Shown here in pieces: positions 18,649-32,596 of a stretch of 61,925 nt of DNA. Under the pieces are notes generated by a model. The model did not search any database, was not told the origin of the DNA, and saw nothing but the letters and a program-made list of their open reading frames with translations. A program made the position numbers and the translations under genes. The DNA is taken from IMG/VR virus record IMGVR_UViG_3300028553_001902, positions 1 through 61,925 of that record; one strand, given 5' to 3'. How positions within the stretch are numbered: the stretch's first letter is position 1; the number at the start of each line of letters is the position of its first letter. Origin of the DNA: a virus (lineage: Duplodnaviria > Caudoviricetes).

Positions 18649-19499
18649 AAAAAATGATTAATCGAACTCTTATTGAGGGGTTTCTTGTTGAAAAGAATAT
18701 GCGTGGCGGCGTAACAAAAGCTGGTGTGCCTTACATTGGTGGCAAGCTACATATTGATACTGGAAATAATAATGTCATTGTTGTAGATGTTTTTGAGCAA
18801 CAAAAAACATCCAAAGGCTTAGCAAATCAAAAGTACGATGTTCTTTCTGGAATTTTTACGAATGGTAAAACTATCCATGATGGAAGTGAAGATCCAACAG
18901 CATTGCGTGTAAATTCAGCGTTTGAATTAAATGATTGGATGAGTGATGGAGAGCAAAGAACTTCACTTATTAATAGTGGTGGATATATTACTGTTGTTAA
19001 TAATCCAAATAAGCGAGCAGAATTTGAAGTAGATGTTGTAGTAAAATCTGTTCAGCCAGAAATTAGAAATGAGCAAGAAACAGGTCGCGCTATTGTAAAT
19101 GGTTTGATCTTCAATTATAGAAATCATGCGCTACCAATTCGTTTTGTAGTAGAAAATAAACAGGGAATTGAATTCTTTAGCAATATGAATCCCAATACAT
19201 TTACAAAAATTTGGGGAGTTCAAGTTATTAATACAGTGGGTTCTCAGAAAACAGAAGAATCTGCATTTGGCAATGCTAAAGTAGTACAATCTGCCTATAC
19301 AAGAAAAGAAAATGTTATTACTGGGGCTCAAACAATGCCTTATGAAGATGAAGAGTTAACTCCTGAAGAATTAAATGCTGCGGTTCAAGCTCGCAATATT
19401 GCAGTTGCCGAAAGATTTAAAGCTCCAGGCCCTGTTACTGGTGGAATTACTCCTGCACAAACACCTTCGAAGCCCAAGATTGGTGCATTTAATTTCTAA
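18645..19499 (+). CDS. Single-stranded DNA-binding protein (tandem OB-fold, putative)
   Basis: 'N...IEGFLVEK' start, flexible tail ending in aromatic 'FNF'; first large gene of the replication module. Confidence 0.65.
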   Translation: MKKMINRTLIEGFLVEKNMRGGVTKAGVPYIGGKLHIDTGNNNVIVVDVFEQQKTSKGLANQKYDVLSGIFTNGKTIHDGSEDPTALRVNSAFELNDWMSDGEQRTSLINSGGYITVVNNPNKRAEFEVDVVVKSVQPEIRNEQETGRAIVNGLIFNYRNHALPIRFVVENKQGIEFFSNMNPNTFTKIWGVQVINTVGSQKTEESAFGNAKVVQSAYTRKENVITGAQTMPYEDEELTPEELNAAVQARNIAVAERFKAPGPVTGGITPAQTPSKPKIGAFNF

Positions 19500-20077
19500 T
19501 GAGTAGTACAAATAGAAGTGATTCTAGAAATTATCATATTTCCGATTATTATATAACACCAGTTGAGGTTATTAAAGAATTTTTAAATAAATTTATTGAA
19601 TTAGAAGGCAAACATGTTTTTAAGTTAGTTCTTGATCCATGTGCTGGTGGAGATGCTCAACATCCGATGAGCTATCCACAGGCACTAGAGGCTTTTGGAA
19701 TAAAAGGAAATATTATGACAGTTGATATTAGAGAAGATTCGCTTGCTGAATTGAAAAGTGATTATCTTAATTTAGATGTTAAACAACAAAACTTCAATGT
19801 TATAATAACAAATCCACCTTTTAGTCACGCTCTTGAGATAATTGAAAAAGCATTGAGCGATGTTGCCGAGAATGGCTATGTTATAATGCTATTACGTTTA
19901 AATTTCTTAGGCTCTAAGAAAAGAAAGCCATTTTGGGAAAGCAATCCACCCAAGTATATCTTTGTTCATTCAAAGAGAATTTCTTTTTTTGGCAATTCTA
20001 ACACTGACAGCATTGAGTATGCTCACTTTGTTTGGCAAAAAAATAATCAGGATACTACAAAGTTATTTGTAATATAA
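19499..20077 (+). CDS. N6-adenine DNA methyltransferase
   Basis: Motif I 'VLDPCAGG' and motif IV 'ITNPPF'. Confidence 0.88.
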   Translation: MSSTNRSDSRNYHISDYYITPVEVIKEFLNKFIELEGKHVFKLVLDPCAGGDAQHPMSYPQALEAFGIKGNIMTVDIREDSLAELKSDYLNLDVKQQNFNVIITNPPFSHALEIIEKALSDVAENGYVIMLLRLNFLGSKKRKPFWESNPPKYIFVHSKRISFFGNSNTDSIEYAHFVWQKNNQDTTKLFVI

Positions 20078-20096
20078 AATAAAAGGAGATATTAGA

Positions 20097-21361
20097 ATGT
20101 TAGATCTATTAAGCATCAAACCACATCAGGTAAGTGACGACCTTAGAGGTTATTCTGTATTTTTCTATGGAGAGTAAGCCTTCACAATAAGGCTCTCCTA
20201 ACTCAGTGAATCGCTAACTTAGCGAGTGTGTAATTGGCTCTAATATTAGAGTAATAGAAGTATAATATCTATGCACAATTATGCCAACGGGGAATTAGTG
20301 AAGGAGAACCCCGTCCCAAGCTCTTAAAAGAGAAGGGCTAGAGACTATCGAAAACACGACTAAAAGTCGGAAGTGAGTAGAGTAGGATGGAGATAAGTAC
20401 CATTCCAAGCGCTGAGGTCCAATATATCGTATTGGATAAGAGATAGTCCGCGGCTCGCCTGAGCCCGCCCAAATCAGGCAAGACTACAACGGCCTCAAAA
20501 TTCCCCAAGTCACTAATCGTTGCTTTTGAAAAAGGCTATGCGGCTCTACCTGGAGTTATGGCTCTTCCAATTAATAGTTGGATTGACTTCTTAAAAGTTC
20601 TTAGACAGCTTAAAGACCCTGCTGTTAAAGAAAAGTATGAAACTATTGTTATTGATACTGTTGATATTGCGTATGATTATTGCGAACAATATATCTGCGC
20701 CCAGAATAATGTAGATACTATTGGAGATATTCCTTTTGGTGGTGGATACACAAAGGTTGGCAAAGAATTTGATAGCAAATTACGCTCGATTGTTCAGCAA
20801 GATTATGGTTTAGTTCTTATCAGTCACTCAACAGACAAAGTTTTCAAGGATGAAACAGGCGAAGAGTACAATAAAATTGTACCAACTCTACCTGCAAAAC
20901 CTAGATTAATTGCTGGTCGTATGTGCGATATTATTGGTTACAGTCGTTCTGTTAATACTGATGATGGTAGTAAGACTTTGTTATTTATGAGAGGTACTGA
21001 GCGCTTTGAGGCTGGTTCTCGATTTAAATACACACCAGATTATATTGAATTTAATTATAAGAATCTTGTAAAGGCTATTCAAGATGCTGTAATTAAACAA
21101 TCAGAAGAAGATGGCATGGAAACTGCTAGCGGTAAAGACAATATCAATACACAAAATTTATTTGATACAGACTTTGAAGATTTGCTAGATGAATTCAATC
21201 AGATTGCAAATACTCTTGTAACAAAAGATCCAAAGAATGTGACAAAAATCACTGATATTGTTGAGCGCCACATTGGCTACGGTAAGAAAGTAAATGAAAT
21301 GACTAGAAATCAAAAAGATATTTTAGACATTATCGTTTATGACTTAAAGCAATTAAAATAA
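20097..21361 (+). CDS. AAA_24/Sak4-like NTPase split by a group I intron (exon 1 20097-20174, exon 2 20468-21361; about 323 aa)
   Basis: AAGGAG SD; exon 1 MLDLLSIKPHQVSDDLRGYSVFFYGE joins PKSGKTTTASKF to rebuild Walker A; Walker B 'TIVIDTVD'; exon 2 is in frame with ORF 20558. Confidence 0.85.
20175..20467 (+). ncRNA. ORF-less group I intron (about 293 nt)
   Basis: P1 GGAGAG(T)/GCTCTCC; P3 CTCAGTG/CGCTGAG; P7 GAGACTA (20341)/ATAGTCC (20443); P9 GGCTC-GCCT-GAGCC; core elements shared with the dnaE intron. Confidence 0.88.
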
Positions 21362-28021: not shown

Positions 28022-31000
28022 ATGTCTTACGTCTCTGTGCATAATCATACCCACTTCTCAAATCTTCGCTTACTAGATTGCATCATAAAGCCGAGCGATT
28101 TAATAGATAGAGCACATGAATTGGGACTTTCTGGTCTAGCAATAACAGACCATGAGTCCCTAAGCGCTCATGTAGAAGCTATTCAATACTATAAAAAGAA
28201 ATATAAAGATTCTGAAATGAAACTAATACTTGGAAATGAGATCTATCTTACTGATGATAGAAGTATGGGTGGAAAATATCCTCACTTTCTACTCATGGCT
28301 AAAAATGCTGAGGGCCATCGCGCACTGAGGGAGTTTAGTAGCATAGCTTGGTCTCATTCTTATTATGATAGAGGGCTTGAGCGCGTCCCTGTAACAAAGC
28401 AAGAGTTGTTAGATATAACAAATAAGTACAAAGGAACACTGATTGCCACAACTGCTTGTATTGGTGGCGAACTCTCACAGTATATCTTAAAATTACATGC
28501 AGCAGAAGGAGCGGGAGATGAGCAGCAAACCACTTTCTATAAGCAGCAGATATATTTATTTATTGATTTTTTACAGCAGTGTTTTGGGCAAGACTTATTA
28601 TTAGAAATAGCCCCAAATGATTCGGAAGAACAGAGAATAGTTAATTGTAGAATGAAATCTATTGCCAGTTTTTTCCAAATTCCTCTAATTTTTGCAACGG
28701 ATTCACACTACCTCAATAAAGAAGATAGATACATCCATAAGGCTTTCTTAAATTCGAAGCACGGTGAGCGAGAAGTTGATGACTTTTATTCTACAGCGTA
28801 CATGATGTCAGAAGAAGAAGTGTGGGAATATTTAAAACATGACTTTTCTAAAGAAGAATTTAATGCCATGATTGAAAATTCTAAAACTATATTGCACAAA
28901 GTCGAATTTTACGACTTATTCAATCCTCAAATTATTCCAACGATCAAATTACCACAAATAAACTTAGATATTACATTCCAAAAAGATAAATATATATATC
29001 TAGATAAGATGCTAGATGATGATAATATACAAAATAATGTATGGATTAAAACTTGTTTAAATAAATTAGCAGAAAAACAACTATTTAACGATACTTATTT
29101 AAATAGATTGAATGATGAAGCTAGAGAGTTGTATGAAATATCTGAGAACCTTAGCATCACAATGACTTCATATTACAATACGATGGCCAAAATTATTGAT
29201 ATCGTATGGAACGAAGGCGACAGTCTAGTAGGTGTTGCGCGAGGAAGTGCCACTGGCTTCTTAAGTTGCTATCTGCTAGGCATCACTCAGCTTGATCCTA
29301 TTAAATGGAACTTGCCGCACTGGCGCCATCTCACAAGTACGCGCCCAGAATTCCCAGATATTGACTTTGATACTCAGGCGCTACGTCGAGATAGAATATT
29401 ACAAGCTATCAAGGCTTATTTTGGCGATAAGAACGTGCTAAATATCTGTACATTTGGTACAGAAGGCCCCAAATCAGCCATCCTAACTGCGTGTAGAGGG
29501 CTAGGCATAGACAACGATATTGGTTTATATCTAACAGGCATGATACCTCAAGAGCGTGGCTTTACATGGCCACTGAGCGATTGTTTATATGGTAATGCTG
29601 AAAAGGATAGACGCCCAATAGAACCGCTTAAAATTGAAATTGCGAAGCATGAAGGCCTAGAAGAAATGATATTGAAGATCGAGGGACTTGTGAATAAGCG
29701 TTCTATTCATGCGGCTGGTGTGTATATCTTTAATAATGGTTTTGTAGAGCGTAATGCTCTAATGAAGGCACCCAATGGACAACCTACTACTCAATGGGAT
29801 ATGGATGATAGCGATTACATGGGCTGTTTAAAGTATGATTTGCTTACTATAGAAGCCTTGGATAAACTGAGGGTTGCATTAGACTTGCTAATAGATGACG
29901 GCTTAATCGAGGCTCAGAGCTCTCTAAAAGAGACATACGATAAGTATCTGCACCCAGATGTTTTAGACTATTCGAATCAGATGTGGCAGGCTGCCTCAGA
30001 TGGAGAAGTCATAAGTCTATTTCAGTTTGATACTTTAGTGGGCGGCCAAGCGATCAAAAAAGTTCAGCCACAATCACTTGAGGACGCAGCATCAGCAAAT
30101 AGCTTAATGAGATTGATGCCACTCGAAGATGGCACAGTATTGGTTGATAAATATGTGCAGTTTAAAAATAATATTGAACTTTGGTATCGAGAATTAGATA
30201 GAAATAATATTCGCCCAGACGAAGTTAAACTGCTTGAACCTCACTATCTACCTGTATATGGTGTGCCCAATACTCAAGAAGATATGATGGAATTACTCAT
30301 GAATCCAGAGCTAATTGGATTCTCACTTGAAGAAGCGAACTATGCAAGAAAAATTGTTGGCAAGAAGAAGATGGAAGAAATTCCTAAGTTAAAGAAAATG
30401 ATTTTTGACAAAAGCCCTGTATCACATAGTCTAATAAACTATATTTATATAACTGCAATTCAACCTCAACTTGGGTAGAATGATGCTCAAGTAAAATTTG
30501 TTGAACCTTATCCAAGGGTGTATGAGAAATCATGCTAACGGTGAAACCTAAGTGTGTGAACATATGGCAATACCGTGCCAAGCTCATTTTGAGAAGGTGT
30601 AGAGACTAAACTGGAGAAATCCTAAGAGAAATAGAGATGGATACTATTTCGTAGCGGCAAATATGAATACCTGTGGTCTAAATTTAACCTTTCATATAGT
30701 CCACTTTTTATTAAAAATAAGGAGGAGTTTATATGATTTGGAGAAAATTTAGAAACACAAGATATGAAATTAGTGAGTACGGGGATGTAAAAAATATTCT
30801 TACAGGAAGAATCTTAAAATCTTCTTTTGTACCAAAGGGCTATTTACATATAAGCCTTAGAATTGATTCTAGTAGAAAAACTTTTTTAATACATAGACTT
30901 GTTGCAGAAGTTTTTTTATCAGAATTTTCCGATCAGTATACAGTGGATCATATTGATGAGAATAAAATTAATAATCATTTTTCAAATTTAAGAATGATGA

Positions 31001-32596
31001 AAAATGAAGAAAATATTTCTATTTCTTGGAGAAGTGGTTCTAGGATTGGAACGTGTACAAAAAAAGTTTTAATGATTAATAAAGCCACTGGATTAGTAGA
31101 AAAAGAATTTGATTCTATTTCCGAGGCTAGTAGACAACTTTCTGTAGATAGAAAAGGCTTAATAAAAAAATTAAATAATAAAACATTAAATAGCAAGAAC
31201 CCTGTATACAAATTTTATATTTTCAAACATTCATAAAGATATAGTCCGATCCTTATAGAAATATAAGATAATTGATTCATTCTCAAGAAATCATACCACT
31301 CCATATACAGCTATCGCTCTTCAAGAGCTTAATATATATAATAAATATCCAACATTATATTGGAATACAGCATGTTTGTATGTTGATGCTGGCGCAGGCG
31401 AGGATAAAACAACAGATTATGCTAAAATTGCAACTGCAATAGGTCAGATAAAGTCAAGTGGAATTAATGTGGCTCTACCTGATATCAATCGCTCAAGATT
31501 TAACTTTAGTCCTGATGTTGAAAACGATAGAATATTGTGCGGCCTGAAGGGTTTAGTTAATGTCGGAGATGATATTGTACATGAAATTATTAAGAATAGA
31601 CCCTATACTTCTTTATATGATTTTATGGAGAGAACTTCTGCATCAAAGTCTGTAATGATATCGCTAATAAAATCTGGGGCTTTTGACTTCGTAGAAAAAA
31701 TTCCAAGAGAAAAGATAATGGAAAATTATATATACTCTACTTTACCGCAAAGAAGTCGTATATCTCTGCAAATAATACCTGCAATTATAAATTCAGATAT
31801 TGATAAGACCGAAATAAATGACCTCCTAGCCTTGTTTGAGTTTAATAGATATATGAGAACTCTAAGGAAAAATAATCATTATATACTAGATCAGAGGGCC
31901 TTAGAATACTATTTAGATAGGTTTGATCCTAAATTAATTGAAGATAATGAAGGAATCAAGTGTGCGGTGTGGGATAGAGTGTACGATAAACATATAGAAC
32001 CCCTACGTAAATGGACCTCTGAAAATCAGGAAGAGATTAAAAAAGCTTTGAGTAAAGAAGCATTTGAAGAAGAATGGGCTAAATACGCGTCTGGCACTAT
32101 AGCATCATGGGAAATGGACTCTGTGAGCTTTTACCATTCGTACCATGAGCTTGAAAAAGTTAATACTTCTGAATATGGAATAGTCGATTTTTATAATCTT
32201 CCTGAATATCCAAAAGTAGAAAAGTTTATAGAATTTGGACCTAAGAAAAAAGTCCCCATATTTCAAACTTCAATAATTGCAGGAACTATCTTAGGAAAAG
32301 ATAAGATAAAATCTACAATTTCTATACAAACGATTGATGGGGTTGTGTATGTTAAGTTTAGACCAGAGCAGTTTGCAGAGTATGATAGGCAAATATCCGA
32401 GCGTCAAGAGGATGGAAGCAAGCGAGTTCTCGATCGCTCGTGGTTTAATCGAGGTAAAAAGATATTACTTACTGGATTTCGTCGCGGCTCCGAATTTGTT
32501 CCTAAAAAATACTCGCATACTTCAACTGAGATGTTATATTTAATTGATGAAATTGACACTCAAGGAAACTTAGTTTTAAAGAGGGATAGACTATGA
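28022..32596 (+). CDS. dnaE: DNA polymerase III alpha (DnaE-type), exon 1 28022-30476 and exon 2 31275-32596 (about 1258 aa)
   Basis: PHP 'HNHTHFS' and 'ITDH', 'RGSA', catalytic 'PDIDFD', 'HAAG', 'KYDLL'; the splice restores LG-Y-SFSRNH. Confidence 0.93.
30477..31274 (+). mobile_element. Group I intron (798 nt) carrying a homing endonuclease
   Basis: Exon ends in U paired in P1 (CTTGGGT/GCTCAAG); P3 ATTTGTTG/CGGCAAAT; P7 GAGACTA/ATAGTCC; terminal G31274; the join is in frame. Confidence 0.93.
30733..31236 (+). CDS. Intron-encoded NUMOD4-HNH-NUMOD1 homing endonuclease
   Basis: 'YEISEYGDVKN', 'IHRLVA..F', 'VDHIDENKINNHFSNL', 'FDSISEASR'. Confidence 0.92.
   Translation: MIWRKFRNTRYEISEYGDVKNILTGRILKSSFVPKGYLHISLRIDSSRKTFLIHRLVAEVFLSEFSDQYTVDHIDENKINNHFSNLRMMKNEENISISWRSGSRIGTCTKKVLMINKATGLVEKEFDSISEASRQLSVDRKGLIKKLNNKTLNSKNPVYKFYIFKHS

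What the first reader, a model, noticed from the sequence alone, without database searches (positions are those of the whole stretch)
20160..20480. Group I intron in a Walker A motif that cannot follow both canonical splice rules
Seen: P1 puts U20175 in the usual U.G wobble and the last G after P9 is G20467. Joining these gives GAG T CCC AAA, a +1 frameshift that stops about 20 codons later. An intact GxxxxGKT needs either cleavage after G20174 (GEPKSGKT) or a 3' end at C20468 (GESKSGKT). The guide GGCTCTCC pairs with both in-frame products, perfectly with GGAGAG|CC. An alternative hairpin AGCCTT/AAGGCT competes with P1. Inference: non-canonical splice-site choice, coupled recoding, a regulatory switch, or a one-base mutation or assembly error.
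Basis: partly seen in the sequence, partly recalled or inferred. Interest (0 to 1): 0.72.

Follow-up and report, generated by a model that had tools for sequence, protein, structure and literature searches.

The report
Phage intron spliced after a G
A self-splicing intron sits inside the ATP-binding motif of a phage recombination gene, and the gene stays readable only if the intron is cut one base earlier than the textbook rule, a rare exception so far shown by experiment only in some bacterial mobile elements.

Summary
A 293-nt ORF-less group I intron (20175-20467) interrupts the Walker A motif of a Sak4-like/AAA_24 ATPase. It is not an assembly error. Contigs from other lake samples reproduce both junctions without indels, and one run also holds the intron-less allele GAG|CCT.

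Among 68 homologues with a readable motif, 67 have a Pro codon at this position and none has Ser. The gene therefore needs GAG|CCC, meaning cleavage after G20174 and after omega-G20467.

A homologous intron at the same site in other phages reads GAU|UAA...G|CCA, which is fully canonical. The window's guide differs from that sibling's at two positions, and both changes compensate exon changes, including U.G to G-C at the cleavage position.

This arrangement has an experimental precedent. In group B IStrons (BcISt1), the exon ends in G, U is the first intron base, and the U-G pair is shifted by one and followed by a loop (Tourasse et al. 2014).

Verdict: a real new member of a rare known kind. 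No RNA evidence is available, so actual splicing remains inferred. Recoding and a regulatory switch are unsupported. Interest is moderate.

The parts
20097..20174 (+). Exon 1 of the Sak4-like (AAA_24) ATPase gene: MLDLLSIKPHQVSDDLRGYSVFFYGE, ending in GGA GAG
   Evidence: Collinear with intron-less homologues ...RGYSVxFYGE|PKSGKT.
20175..20467 (+). Group I intron, 293 nt, no ORF. Starts with UAA (an in-frame stop) and ends with omega-G20467
   Evidence: Precise 293-nt insertion relative to the intron-less allele in run X17 (joint 20174->20477 with CCTAAAAGT between). Core homology to annotated phage introns. Covariation. z = -3.53.
20169..20174 (+). P1 5' strand (GGAGAG); proposed 5' splice site lies after G20174
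   Evidence: Pairs with C20193-C20198. Same register as GGUGAU|U in L088-type and 0305phi8-36 and GGAGAU|U in L087.
20175..20175 (+). U(+1), the first intron base. It can wobble with G20192; it is the base a canonical reading would place in the exon
   Evidence: The intron's first base is U in all four sibling types as well.
20191..20198 (+). Internal guide GGCUCUCC: 20193-20198 pair with exon 1 (P1), and G20191-G20192 pair with C20469-C20468 of exon 2 (P10)
   Evidence: Read directly from the sequence. Siblings carry GGGUCACC. The two differences compensate GGA/GGU and GAG/GAU in the exon.
20177..20194 (+). Its 4-bp form CCUU/AAGG coexists with a 6-bp P1
   Evidence: L088 (UCGU/AUGG) and L087 (CUU/AAG) fold into a counterpart after a bulged UAA.
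20202..20208 (+). 5' strand of the long-range helix that is P3 by topology (CUCAGUG); pairs with 20410-20416
   Evidence: MFE. Compensatory variants, read by eye from the printed sequences: L087 CUCCGUG/CGCGGAG and 0305phi8-36 CCUUGUG/CGCAAGG.
20211..20281 (+). Two peripheral hairpins: UCGCUA/UAGCGA at 20211-20225, and the long stem UAAUUG/CAAUUA at 20231-20281
   Evidence: L088 has hairpins of different sequence at the same places, and its endonuclease ORF sits in the loop of the second.
20288..20332 (+). P4/P5 (CGGGG 20288-20292 / CCCCG 20309-20313) and P6 (CUCU 20321-20324 / AGAG 20329-20332)
   Evidence: (P6 pairs covary).
20343..20348 (+). P7 5' strand GACUAU, within the R-like element CUAGAGACUAUCG
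   Evidence: Pairs with AUAGUC at 20443-20448. All 6 pairs are invariant in 26 of 26 aligned family members.
20357..20406 (+). Two hairpins between P7 5' and P3 3' (P7.1 at 20357-20369; P7.2 at 20385-20406)
   Evidence: This is the IA-type arrangement.
20410..20416 (+). P3 3' strand CGCUGAG
   Evidence: plus the comparisons listed for 20202-20208.
20418..20436 (+). P8 hairpin UCCAAUA/UAUUGGA
   Evidence: all six pairs covary. The two changes in the X17 variant at 20428-20429 fall in its loop.
20443..20448 (+). P7 3' strand AUAGUC, within the S-like element AAGAGAUAGUCC
20452..20467 (+). P9 hairpin GGCUC-GCCU-GAGCC (20452-20465), then C20466 and omega-G20467
   Evidence: Siblings end ...ACCCG|CCA and ...GUAAG|CCA.
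20468..21361 (+). Exon 2: PKSGKTTTASKFPKS... to the stop
   Evidence: Pfam AAA_24, E = 3e-36, profile positions 11-195 of 195. 53% identical to Enterococcus phage proteins annotated as Sak4-like.

Best explanation
A functional group I intron of the phage IA type, with no ORF of its own, lies exactly between the Glu codon GAG and the Pro codon CCC of the Walker A motif (GEPKSGKT) of a Sak4-like recombination ATPase. I propose it is excised by cleavage after G20174, which pairs with C20193 as the sixth and last pair of P1, and after omega-G20467. The U that looks like the canonical splice-site U (U20175) is then the first base of the intron. It is either bulged with the next two A's or wobble-paired with G20192, one position past the cut. 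After the first step, G20191-G20192 pair with the CC of the Pro codon (P10) and the exons ligate to GGAGAG|CCCAAA. A Glu codon cannot end in U, so an intron at this site in a Glu-encoding gene cannot have U at -1; the guide has adapted (G to C) to keep the pair. Shown here: the anatomy, the insertion point, the sequence accuracy, homology to canonical siblings, and the compensatory guide changes. Inferred: that splicing happens, and that it happens at exactly these two bonds.
For: (1) Protein constraint. 38 of 38 loci L003-L040 read YG[E/D]|PKSGKT without interruption. Across all 80 loci, 68 had a readable motif; 67 of those have CCN (Pro), 1 has GCA (Ala), and none has Ser. The closest named homologue reads FYGEPKSGKTTTA. 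(2) Insertion point. Run X17 holds an intron-less allele that joins 20174 to 20477 through CCTAAAAGT, i.e. GAG|CCT AAA AGT. (3) Not an error. X11 contig 20123-20473 and X13 contig 20404-20605 show 0 differences and 0 gaps. X17 contigs of a diverged intron-bearing variant lie on 20081-20239 and 20275-20553 with 0 gaps. (4) Sibling intron at the same site (L088, L090, L091/L052, L095): UAUGGUGAU|UAAUCG...GGGUCACC-UAACUCAGUGAA...CACCCG|CCAAAG. It is canonical and in frame as GD|PKSGKT. The related recA intron of phage 0305phi8-36 reads GGUGAU|UGG...GGGUCACC...GUAAG|CCAAAC. It is collinear with RecA only when Pro follows directly: there are 9 residues between INQ[LI]R and P in both proteins. This fixes the 3' site right after omega-G in the family and excludes the Ser reading there. 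(5) The window's guide GGCUCUCC differs from GGGUCACC at two positions. Both changes restore pairing with the exon (GGA vs GGU; GAG vs GAU), while the GG that pairs with the Pro codon is kept. L087 has GGAGAU|UAA with guide GGUCUCC, which is one exon change and one guide change away from the window. (6) Common architecture in the window, L088 and L087: a 6-bp P1, then a bulge beginning UAA, then a stacked distal helix. (7) Precedent, read as passages of PMC4227781. In group B IStrons the last 5' exon base is G and the U is the first element base. The U-G pair is shifted one bp from the splice site and followed by an internal loop. RT-PCR sequencing of BcISt1 confirmed splicing after G. Those ribozymes show IA2 features, including P7.1/P7.2. 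(8) The ribozyme is intact. Of the 4 listed intron changes in the X17 variant, 3 fall in loops. All 12 listed exon-2 changes are synonymous third positions in the PKSGKT frame (codons read).
Against: No RNA data exist. No listed run is RNA, so neither splicing nor the junction has been observed. U at -1 is near-universal: 'virtually always a U (or exceptionally a C)' (PMC4227781 passage). In the Anabaena intron, swapping T-G to G-T at that position abolished circular RNA formation (PMC12355055 passage), although that is G.U and not G-C. The local MFE (-11.6) leaves G20174 unpaired, whereas the 6-bp P1 form scores -10.8. The covariation at -1 rests on a single evolutionary event between two or three intron lineages. 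P10 is only 2 bp. The exon divergence seen in X17 may predate the intron's arrival: the intron differs by about 6 of 193 positions and the exon by 12 of 86, so it does not prove selection after insertion. One listed X17 change (20366) breaks a P7.1 pair unless it is compensated by a change the tool did not list (21 changes were not shown). Rfam gives no hit, though it also misses annotated members of the family.
Confidence: 0.68

Rival explanations
1. The ribozyme obeys the textbook rules: it cuts after U20175 (U.G wobble) and after G20467. The mRNA then carries one extra U and the ATPase is truncated 20 codons later. Either the gene is inactivated by a selfish intron, or only a minority of transcripts are cut at the in-frame bond (mixed site use).
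For: U20175.G20192 extends P1 to 7 bp, at -9.6 versus -7.5 kcal/mol for 6 bp. The canonical rule holds for nearly all group I introns (passage). The join gives a stop at codon 47. BcISt1 also gave circles lacking the first base (passage), so some heterogeneity is conceivable.
Against: The canonical siblings L088, L087 and 0305phi8-36 also have a U at +1 that can wobble with the next G, yet they must be cut before it to stay in frame. The family therefore does not use that position. Exon 2 is an intact 297-codon ORF with a full AAA_24 match. The guide has a C opposite G20174. The intron-bearing phage is about as abundant as its intron-less relative in X17, with depths of 12-13 versus 10.8.
Confidence: 0.15
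2. The intron no longer splices. It is a dead intron and the gene is a recent pseudogene.
For: A non-canonical -1 base, no RNA evidence, no homing endonuclease gene, and no Rfam hit.
Against: All core helices are intact, with compensatory differences from siblings. The guide is perfectly matched to the exons. Exon 2 has no stop or frameshift. The sequence is held by 13 runs with at least half of the sampled words, from many studies dated 2019-2025. A diverged variant keeps the intron without indels.
Confidence: 0.07
3. Both sites are shifted by one: cleavage after U20175 and after C20468, giving GESKSGKT.
For: It is in frame and keeps U.G at the 5' site.
Against: It needs C instead of omega-G. 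None of 68 homologues has Ser at this position. In 0305phi8-36 the equivalent shift would replace the Pro that aligns with RecA's Pro. P10 would drop to 1 bp.
Confidence: 0.03
4. Canonical splicing followed by a +1 ribosomal frameshift or other recoding restores the frame.
For: Only that the canonical product is one base too long.
Against: No recognisable shift-prone site at GAG UCC CAA (my own knowledge of +1 frameshift sites, not tested here). The intron-less allele and the siblings need no such device.
Confidence: 0.02
5. Assembly or sequencing indel error. The true sequence allows a canonical in-frame splice.
For: The window is a metagenome-assembled viral contig.
Against: Contigs of separate runs reproduce both junctions with 0 gaps, including a diverged variant. 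X1 may be the source sample and is not counted.
Confidence: 0.01
6. The hairpin 20177-20194 is a regulatory switch that sequesters the guide and gates splicing. This is an add-on and is not exclusive of the best explanation.
For: In its 6-bp form it takes C20193 and G20191-G20192, and the bulged form is the local MFE.
Against: Siblings have a shorter distal helix of different sequence that stacks on a complete P1, which fits a structural P1 extension. No ligand-binding or protein-binding element is evident. Nothing was tested.
Confidence: 0.04

Closest known systems
Group B IStrons, e.g. BcISt1 of Bacillus cereus ATCC 10987 (Tourasse, Stabell, Kolsto 2014, NAR 42:12333, PMC4227781; passages read)
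   Same: The last base of the 5' exon is G. A U follows and is the first base of the element. The U-G pair lies one bp beyond the splice site and is followed by a loop. The ribozyme has IA2 features with P7.1 and P7.2. The boundary was first inferred from element-less homologous sequences, as here, and then confirmed by RT-PCR.
   Different: IStrons carry IS200/IS605 or IS607 ORFs downstream of P9.2 and have an extended P9, whereas this intron is 293 nt with no ORF and one short P9 hairpin. This one sits in phase inside a phage protein-coding motif, where one base decides the frame. Sequence relatedness to IStron ribozymes was not tested because no IStron sequence was on hand. The paper's supplements could not be seen.
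Sibling intron at the same Walker A site in other uncultured phages (L088, L090, L091/L052, L095), and the annotated mobile intron in recA of Bacillus phage 0305phi8-36 (EF583821, L083)
   Same: The core is shared: 80% identity over 102 nt to 0305phi8-36, and a shared 20-mer. The guide design is the same (GG + N + UC + N + CC), exon 2 starts CC(A/C)AAA in each, and each intron starts with U. L088 also shares the J1/3-P3 motif UAACUCAGUGAA.
   Different: The siblings have U at -1 (GAU, Asp) paired with G and obey both canonical rules. They also carry endonuclease ORFs. L088's ORF gives a weak HNH hit of 19.1 bits, below the cut-off. The 0305phi8-36 ORF029 has HTH domains plus DUF559 at 29.7 bits. 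The window's intron has G at -1 paired with C and carries no ORF.
Two fungal mitochondrial group I introns with C.G instead of U.G at the 5' splice site (Hur and Waring 1995, NAR 23:4466; only the title was seen, in a reference list; the paper is not held)
   Same: A natural departure from U.G at the cleavage site. The title raises selection at the protein level, which is the logic proposed here: a Glu codon cannot end in U.
   Different: Those introns keep a pyrimidine at -1, whereas here it is a purine. I did not read the paper.
Classical phage IA2 introns (T4 td, nrdB, nrdD; Twort orf142; SPO1 DNA polymerase); from my own knowledge, not from a call
   Same: Small self-splicing introns in conserved catalytic motifs of phage DNA-metabolism genes, with an in-frame stop soon after the 5' splice site.
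   Different: As far as I recall, all of them have U.G at the 5' splice site.

Membership tests
Group I intron | P7 helix forming a pseudoknot with P3, with conserved R/S-like elements | tested here: met
   GACUAU 20343-20348 pairs with AUAGUC 20443-20448, invariant in 26 of 26 aligned members. CUCAGUG 20202-20208 pairs with CGCUGAG 20410-20416 and encloses the P7 5' strand. Compensatory variants occur in L087 and 0305phi8-36, read by eye.
Group I intron | P4-P6 and P8/P9 helices supported by covariation | tested here: met
   fold_alignment of 26 sequences, chosen by me from 84 distinct family segments plus the window: 24 of 30 predicted pairs have compensatory changes.
Group I intron | Internal guide pairing with the end of the 5' exon (P1) and the start of the 3' exon (P10) | tested here: met
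   GGAGAG/CUCUCC gives 6 bp and CC/GG gives 2 bp. The guide covaries with the exon between siblings.
Group I intron | The last base of the 5' exon is U, in a U.G wobble with the guide | tested here: not met
   The in-frame product, the intron-less allele and 67 of 68 homologues require the exon to end in G20174, which pairs with C20193.
Group I intron | The last intron base is G (omega-G) | tested here: met
   G20467 directly precedes the Pro codon, as in L088 and 0305phi8-36.
Group I intron | Match to the Rfam group I model | tested here: not met
   0 matches at gathering score in the whole window, and 0 at E <= 10 in 20050-20600. The test is uninformative, because 8 loci with related or annotated introns also gave 0 matches.
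Group I intron | Guanosine-initiated self-splicing | not testable with these tools
   No RNA run was listed. In vitro transcription and splicing are needed.
Subgroup IA2 | P7.1 and P7.2 between P7 and P3; extended P9 (P9.0-P9.2) | tested here: inconclusive
   Two hairpins lie at 20357-20369 and 20385-20406, but there is only one short P9 hairpin, and two hairpins sit between the P3 5' strand and P4. The feature list comes from the PMC4227781 passage.
Group B IStron-type 5' splice site | The exon ends in G; U is the first element base and can pair with G one bp past the cut; a loop follows | tested here: met
   The order is G20174|U20175, then U20175.G20192, then the A.G and A.A mismatches. The cut itself is inferred, not observed.
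IStron (element) | An IS200/IS605 or IS607 ORF region inserted near the 3' end of the ribozyme | tested here: not met
   The intron is 293 nt. No + strand ORF of 30 aa or more lies within it; only two minus-strand ORFs of 37 and 56 aa overlap it.
Sak4-like / AAA_24 ATPase (host gene) | AAA_24 domain with Walker A GxxxxGK[ST] | tested here: met
   Pfam PF13479, E = 3e-36, for exon 2. GEPKSGKT is restored only by the G20174/G20467 join or its 1-nt-shifted equivalent.

The most novel reading that the evidence does not exclude
In this whole sub-family of phage introns (the window, L088-type, L087, and 0305phi8-36 recA), the 5' splice site may not be set by a U.G wobble at -1 at all. It may instead be set by P1 geometry: a six-base-pair P1 that ends where the first intron bases (U-A-A) bulge out and a distal helix stacks on. 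The conserved U would then be the first intron base. On this view the U.G at -1 in the canonical siblings is incidental, and the -1 pair is free to vary. That would let these introns colonise sites after codons that can never end in U, such as Glu. The window and its siblings would then be a natural matched pair for dissecting splice-site choice by a group I ribozyme, and the one-base shift seen in group B IStrons would be one instance of a wider rule.
Probability: 0.3. Interest if true: 0.7.

Novelty: new member of a known kind. Interest (0 to 1): 0.5.

Why it matters
The rule that a group I intron's 5' exon ends in U opposite G is treated as nearly absolute and is built into annotation practice. 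Applied here, it yields a frameshifted 'pseudogene' in a conserved phage recombination ATPase. Splicing after G has been shown by experiment in the group B IStron BcISt1, and its authors asked for functional work on how the site is chosen (PMC4227781 passages). This phage intron offers a cleaner system. It is 293 nt with no ORF, a single base decides the reading frame, and a canonical sibling sits at exactly the same site with matching guide changes. It also shows plausibly why the rule is broken: the protein wants Glu, and no Glu codon ends in U. In practical terms, Rfam 15 detects neither this intron, nor the second intron in the window, nor annotated relatives. The core pattern of this family occurs in more than 108 viral contigs, so such genes will routinely be mis-annotated as split or broken.

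Tried and rejected
Rfam at gathering score and at E <= 10 gave nothing. I treat this as uninformative.

Megablast of the gene region against phage genomes found no match.

An exact 19-mer from the 3' end of the intron had 0 hits in viral contigs.

The metagenome-contig scan with a degenerate P1/J1-3 pattern gave 6 stretches. By my reading of the printed sequence, only L095 (L088-type) is a Sak4 intron and the other 5 are chance matches.

An automated attempt to call guides and -1 bases across the roughly 110 family members failed. The J1/3 motif is confined to a few members and the candidate pairings were ambiguous, so I make no family-wide statement on -1 bases.

The genome-contig scan found 37 stretches with the core pattern, mostly in Bacillota, with some cyanobacteria and Bacteroidota. 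I did not analyse them further, and none was examined for IStron structure.

RNA evidence: no RNA holder was listed. All four runs laid were DNA contigs, so expression and the junction could not be seen.

Literature. Searches were used. One paper holds both 'group I intron' and 'Sak4' (the SPP1 genome paper; listing only, not read). I therefore cannot say more than that these searches found no description of an intron in a Sak4 Walker A motif. PMC7595605 (passages) was not relevant. Hur and Waring 1995 is not held. Classical work on the U.G pair (Doudna, Barfod, Strobel, Pyle, Knitt with Cech, Szostak or Herschlag) is recalled only and was not seen.

Rejected readings: assembly error, the Ser reading, and frameshift recoding (see rivals). 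The A20173/C20466 cut pair gives the same mRNA as the best reading but loses omega-G, so I did not prefer it.
Full report
What is there. The window is a 61,925-base viral contig fragment, with a CheckV completeness estimate of 35. Its sequence is held by many lake and freshwater metagenome runs. At 20097 an ORF starts (MLDLLSIKPHQVSDDLRGYSVFFYGE) and stops at TAA 20175-20177. From 20468 a 297-codon frame reads PKSGKTTTASKFPKS.... That frame matches Pfam AAA_24 positions 11-195 of 195 with E = 3e-36. It is 53% identical to Enterococcus phage proteins annotated as Sak4-like ssDNA annealing protein. The neighbouring genes form a replication module, including a DnaB-like helicase downstream. The 293 bases in between split the Walker A motif.

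It is a group I intron even though Rfam is blind to it. Rfam 15 gives no match in the window at gathering score, and none at E <= 10 in 20050-20600. It also gives none for eight loci with related introns, including the annotated recA intron of Bacillus phage 0305phi8-36 and a Felixounavirus DNA polymerase intron. Blastn links 20311-20412 to these introns, at 80.4% identity over 102 nt to 0305phi8-36. From 84 distinct family segments I chose 25 that had no ORF inserted in the P4-P6 region, judging by eye, and aligned them with the window. Of 30 predicted pairs, 24 show compensatory change, and the six P7 pairs are invariant in 26 of 26 sequences. The window's intron folds with z = -3.53, and 0 of 100 shuffles fold as well. 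Its parts are as follows:
- P1: 20169-20174/20193-20198.
- A long-range helix that is P3 by topology: 20202-20208/20410-20416, with compensatory variants in L087 and 0305phi8-36.
- Two peripheral hairpins.
- P4/P5 and P6.
- P7: 20343-20348/20443-20448.
- Two hairpins between P7 and P3, which is the IA-type arrangement.
- P8 and P9, followed by C20466 and G20467.

Cutting after U20175 and after G20467 gives GAG U CCC AAA and a stop at codon 47. Cutting after G20174 and G20467 gives GEPKSGKT. Cutting after U20175 and C20468 gives GESKSGKT.

It is not an error. Logan contigs from run X11 (20123-20473 and 20445-20638) and run X13 (20404-20605) match with 0 differences and 0 gaps. X1 also matches but may be the source sample. 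Run X17, from a different study dated 2024, holds two informative alleles:
- A diverged intron-bearing relative. Contigs lie on 20081-20239 (3 differences, 0 gaps) and on 20275-20553 (18 differences, 0 gaps).
- An intron-less allele that joins 20174 to 20477 through CCTAAAAGT, i.e. GAG|CCT AAA AGT.
All 12 listed exon-2 differences of the intron-bearing variant are synonymous third positions in the PKSGKT frame. Three of its four listed intron differences fall in loops, and one turns the P6 loop UAAA into GAAA. The tool left 21 differences unlisted, so I claim no indels at the junctions, not base-for-base identity.

Which bonds are cut. Intron-less homologues settle the product. Loci L003-L040 all read YG[E/D]|PKSGKT: 38 of 38, with 36 Glu and 2 Asp. 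Of all 80 loci, 68 had a readable motif. Of those, 67 have a Pro codon, 1 has Ala, and none has Ser. The codons preceding it are 28 GAA, 17 GAG, 7 GAY, 12 ACT, 1 GCA, 2 TAG, and one locus (L052) with an intron. The other 12 loci either have a different motif (7) or carry introns elsewhere in Walker A (5). The exons must therefore be joined as GAG|CCC.

The sibling intron. L088, L090, L091 (the same contig as L052) and L095 carry a homologous intron at exactly this site. It reads UAUGGUGAU|UAAUCG...AUGGGUCACC-UAACUCAGUGAA...[161-aa ORF]...CACCCG|CCAAAGAGUGGUAAA. It obeys both rules and reads GD|PKSGKT. The 0305phi8-36 recA intron has the same guide (GGGUCACC) and the same exon context, GGUGAU|...G|CCAAAC. 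Alignment to RecA structures shows 9 residues between INQ[LI]R and the conserved Pro in both proteins, so its 3' site is directly after omega-G and Pro follows. L087, which sits in a DNA polymerase III alpha gene, has GGAGAU|UAA with guide GGUCUCC.

Lined up from the base of P1, the window's guide GGCUCUCC differs from GGGUCACC at two positions. Each change matches an exon change: GGA for GGU, and GAG for GAU. At the cleavage position the pair is U.G in the siblings and G-C in the window. The two G's 5' of that position are kept in all of them, and they pair with the CC of the Pro codon (P10). All four intron types begin with U.

Folded alone, the P1 regions of L088 and L087 give a 6-bp P1, a bulged UAA and a short distal helix. 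The window gives the same form at -10.8 kcal/mol, against an MFE of -11.6 in which the distal helix takes one more pair and G20174 is unpaired. The short sibling helices are not individually significant, with z = -1.2 and -1.1.

Precedent. Tourasse et al. 2014 (PMC4227781; passages read) report the following for group B IStrons:
- The last base of the 5' exon is G, whereas it is 'virtually always a U (or exceptionally a C)' in known group I introns.
- The U at the junction is the first base of the element, as judged from element-less homologous sequences.
- The U-G pair is shifted by one bp from the splice site and is followed by an internal loop.
- RT-PCR sequencing of BcISt1 confirmed splicing after G.
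- Those ribozymes have IA2 features, including P7.1/P7.2.
The window shows the same arrangement: G20174|U20175, with U20175 able to wobble with G20192, followed by the A.G and A.A mismatches. The only other natural exception I could trace is a title seen in a reference list, Hur and Waring 1995, on C.G pairs. In the Anabaena intron a T-G to G-T swap at this position abolished activity (PMC12355055 passage). A purine at -1 is therefore not generally tolerated.

Mechanism proposed. The steps are:
1. P1 (GGAGAG/CUCUCC) docks.
2. Guanosine attacks the bond between G20174 and U20175.
3. G20191-G20192 leave the distal helix (or U20175) and pair with C20469-C20468.
4. Omega-G20467 enters the G site.
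5. The exons ligate to GAG|CCC.
The likely reason for the departure from the rule is at the protein level: Glu is the commonest residue here (45 of the 67 uninterrupted motifs) and no Glu codon ends in U. Everything after 'P1 docks' is inference. I put 0.68 on this. I put 0.15 on canonical or mixed cutting that yields a frameshifted product, and 0.07 on a dead intron. The Ser reading, recoding, assembly error and a hairpin switch each get small values.

Against my reading. There is no RNA evidence. The covariation at -1 is a single event. P10 is 2 bp. The MFE leaves G20174 unpaired. One X17 change (20366) breaks a P7.1 pair unless it is compensated by an unlisted change. The intron is less diverged than the flanking exon between the window and the X17 variant: about 6 of 193 positions against 12 of 86. 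This fits recent spread of the intron as well as it fits selection, so the synonymous pattern in exon 2 may predate the insertion.

Novelty and score. The phenomenon, cutting one base 5' of the U-G pair after a G, is in print for IStrons. This is a new instance in a different setting: a small ORF-less phage intron, in phase in a catalytic motif, with a canonical sibling at the same site. I rate it a new member of a known kind, with interest 0.5. The boldest reading not excluded is that this intron sub-family sets its 5' site by P1 geometry rather than by the -1 wobble (probability 0.3).

Noticed in passing
window 30477-31274 (+): A second group I intron, 798 nt, splits the DNA polymerase III alpha gene (exon 1 at 28022-30476, exon 2 at 31275-32596). 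It carries a 167-aa endonuclease ORF (30733-31236; Pfam HNH_3 and NUMOD4). By my reading it follows both canonical rules: CUUGGGU|AGAAUG with guide GCUCAAG, and AAUUG|AUUCAUUC, giving QLG-Y-SFSRNH. It serves as an internal contrast to the Sak4 intron. The junction was judged from reading frames and a recalled polymerase motif, not from an aligned homologue. Rfam misses this intron too.
   Followed up: partly
L041, L043, L056 and L054; L042 (only): The Walker A motif of this Sak4 family is an intron hotspot with three insertion points within 12 nt. These are after the Glu/Asp codon (window, L088-type), after the Ser codon (AGU|AAAUAA...AUUG|GGUAAA in L041, L043, L056), and after the Gly codon (GGU|GAAUAG...AUAUG|AAAACG in L054). 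The latter two are long (about 1.0-1.15 kb), have U at -1, and appear to belong to other intron families.
   Followed up: partly
L060:2498-2500 and L063:1817-1819: Two homologous genes have TAG where the others have the Glu codon (YG*PKSGKT) in an otherwise open frame. This suggests phages that read TAG as an amino acid.
   Followed up: no
L088:9909-10668 and L083:380-1676: Related introns sit in two different RecA-superfamily genes, Sak4 Walker A and recA, at sites that share the same 11 bases (GGTGAT|CCAAA) and the same guide (GGGTCACC). Their endonuclease ORFs are unrelated: a weak HNH hit in L088 versus HTH plus DUF559 in 0305phi8-36. The ORFs also lie in different loops, the second peripheral stem in L088 versus the P1 loop in 0305phi8-36. 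This fits guide-directed spread (reverse splicing) better than endonuclease specificity, but that is inference only.
   Followed up: partly
window 20239-20250, run X17 contigs: The diverged intron-bearing variant in run X17 leaves the window's sequence at 20239 (a loose end of 255 letters) and rejoins at 20246-20250. This is in the loop of the long peripheral stem, the same place where L088 carries its endonuclease ORF. A version of the G(-1) intron with an insert, possibly a homing endonuclease gene, may therefore exist.
   Followed up: no
window (whole), L083, L085, L088, L106, L136, L104, L041, L054: Rfam 15 at gathering score detects none of these phage group I introns, including ones annotated in GenBank. 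The family's core pattern occurs in more than 108 viral contigs and 37 genome contigs.
   Followed up: partly
window 19499-20077 (+): The ORF directly upstream of the Sak4 gene has a weak Dam (N6-adenine methyltransferase) match below Pfam's cut-off: 21.3 bits against a cut-off of 28.1. It contains an NPPF motif.
   Followed up: no
L087:6040-8600: A DNA polymerase III alpha gene on this contig carries a family member with GGAGAU|UAA at its 5' end. Further downstream there appear to be additional ORF-bearing insertions and another group I-like core, so it is a multi-intron locus.
   Followed up: no
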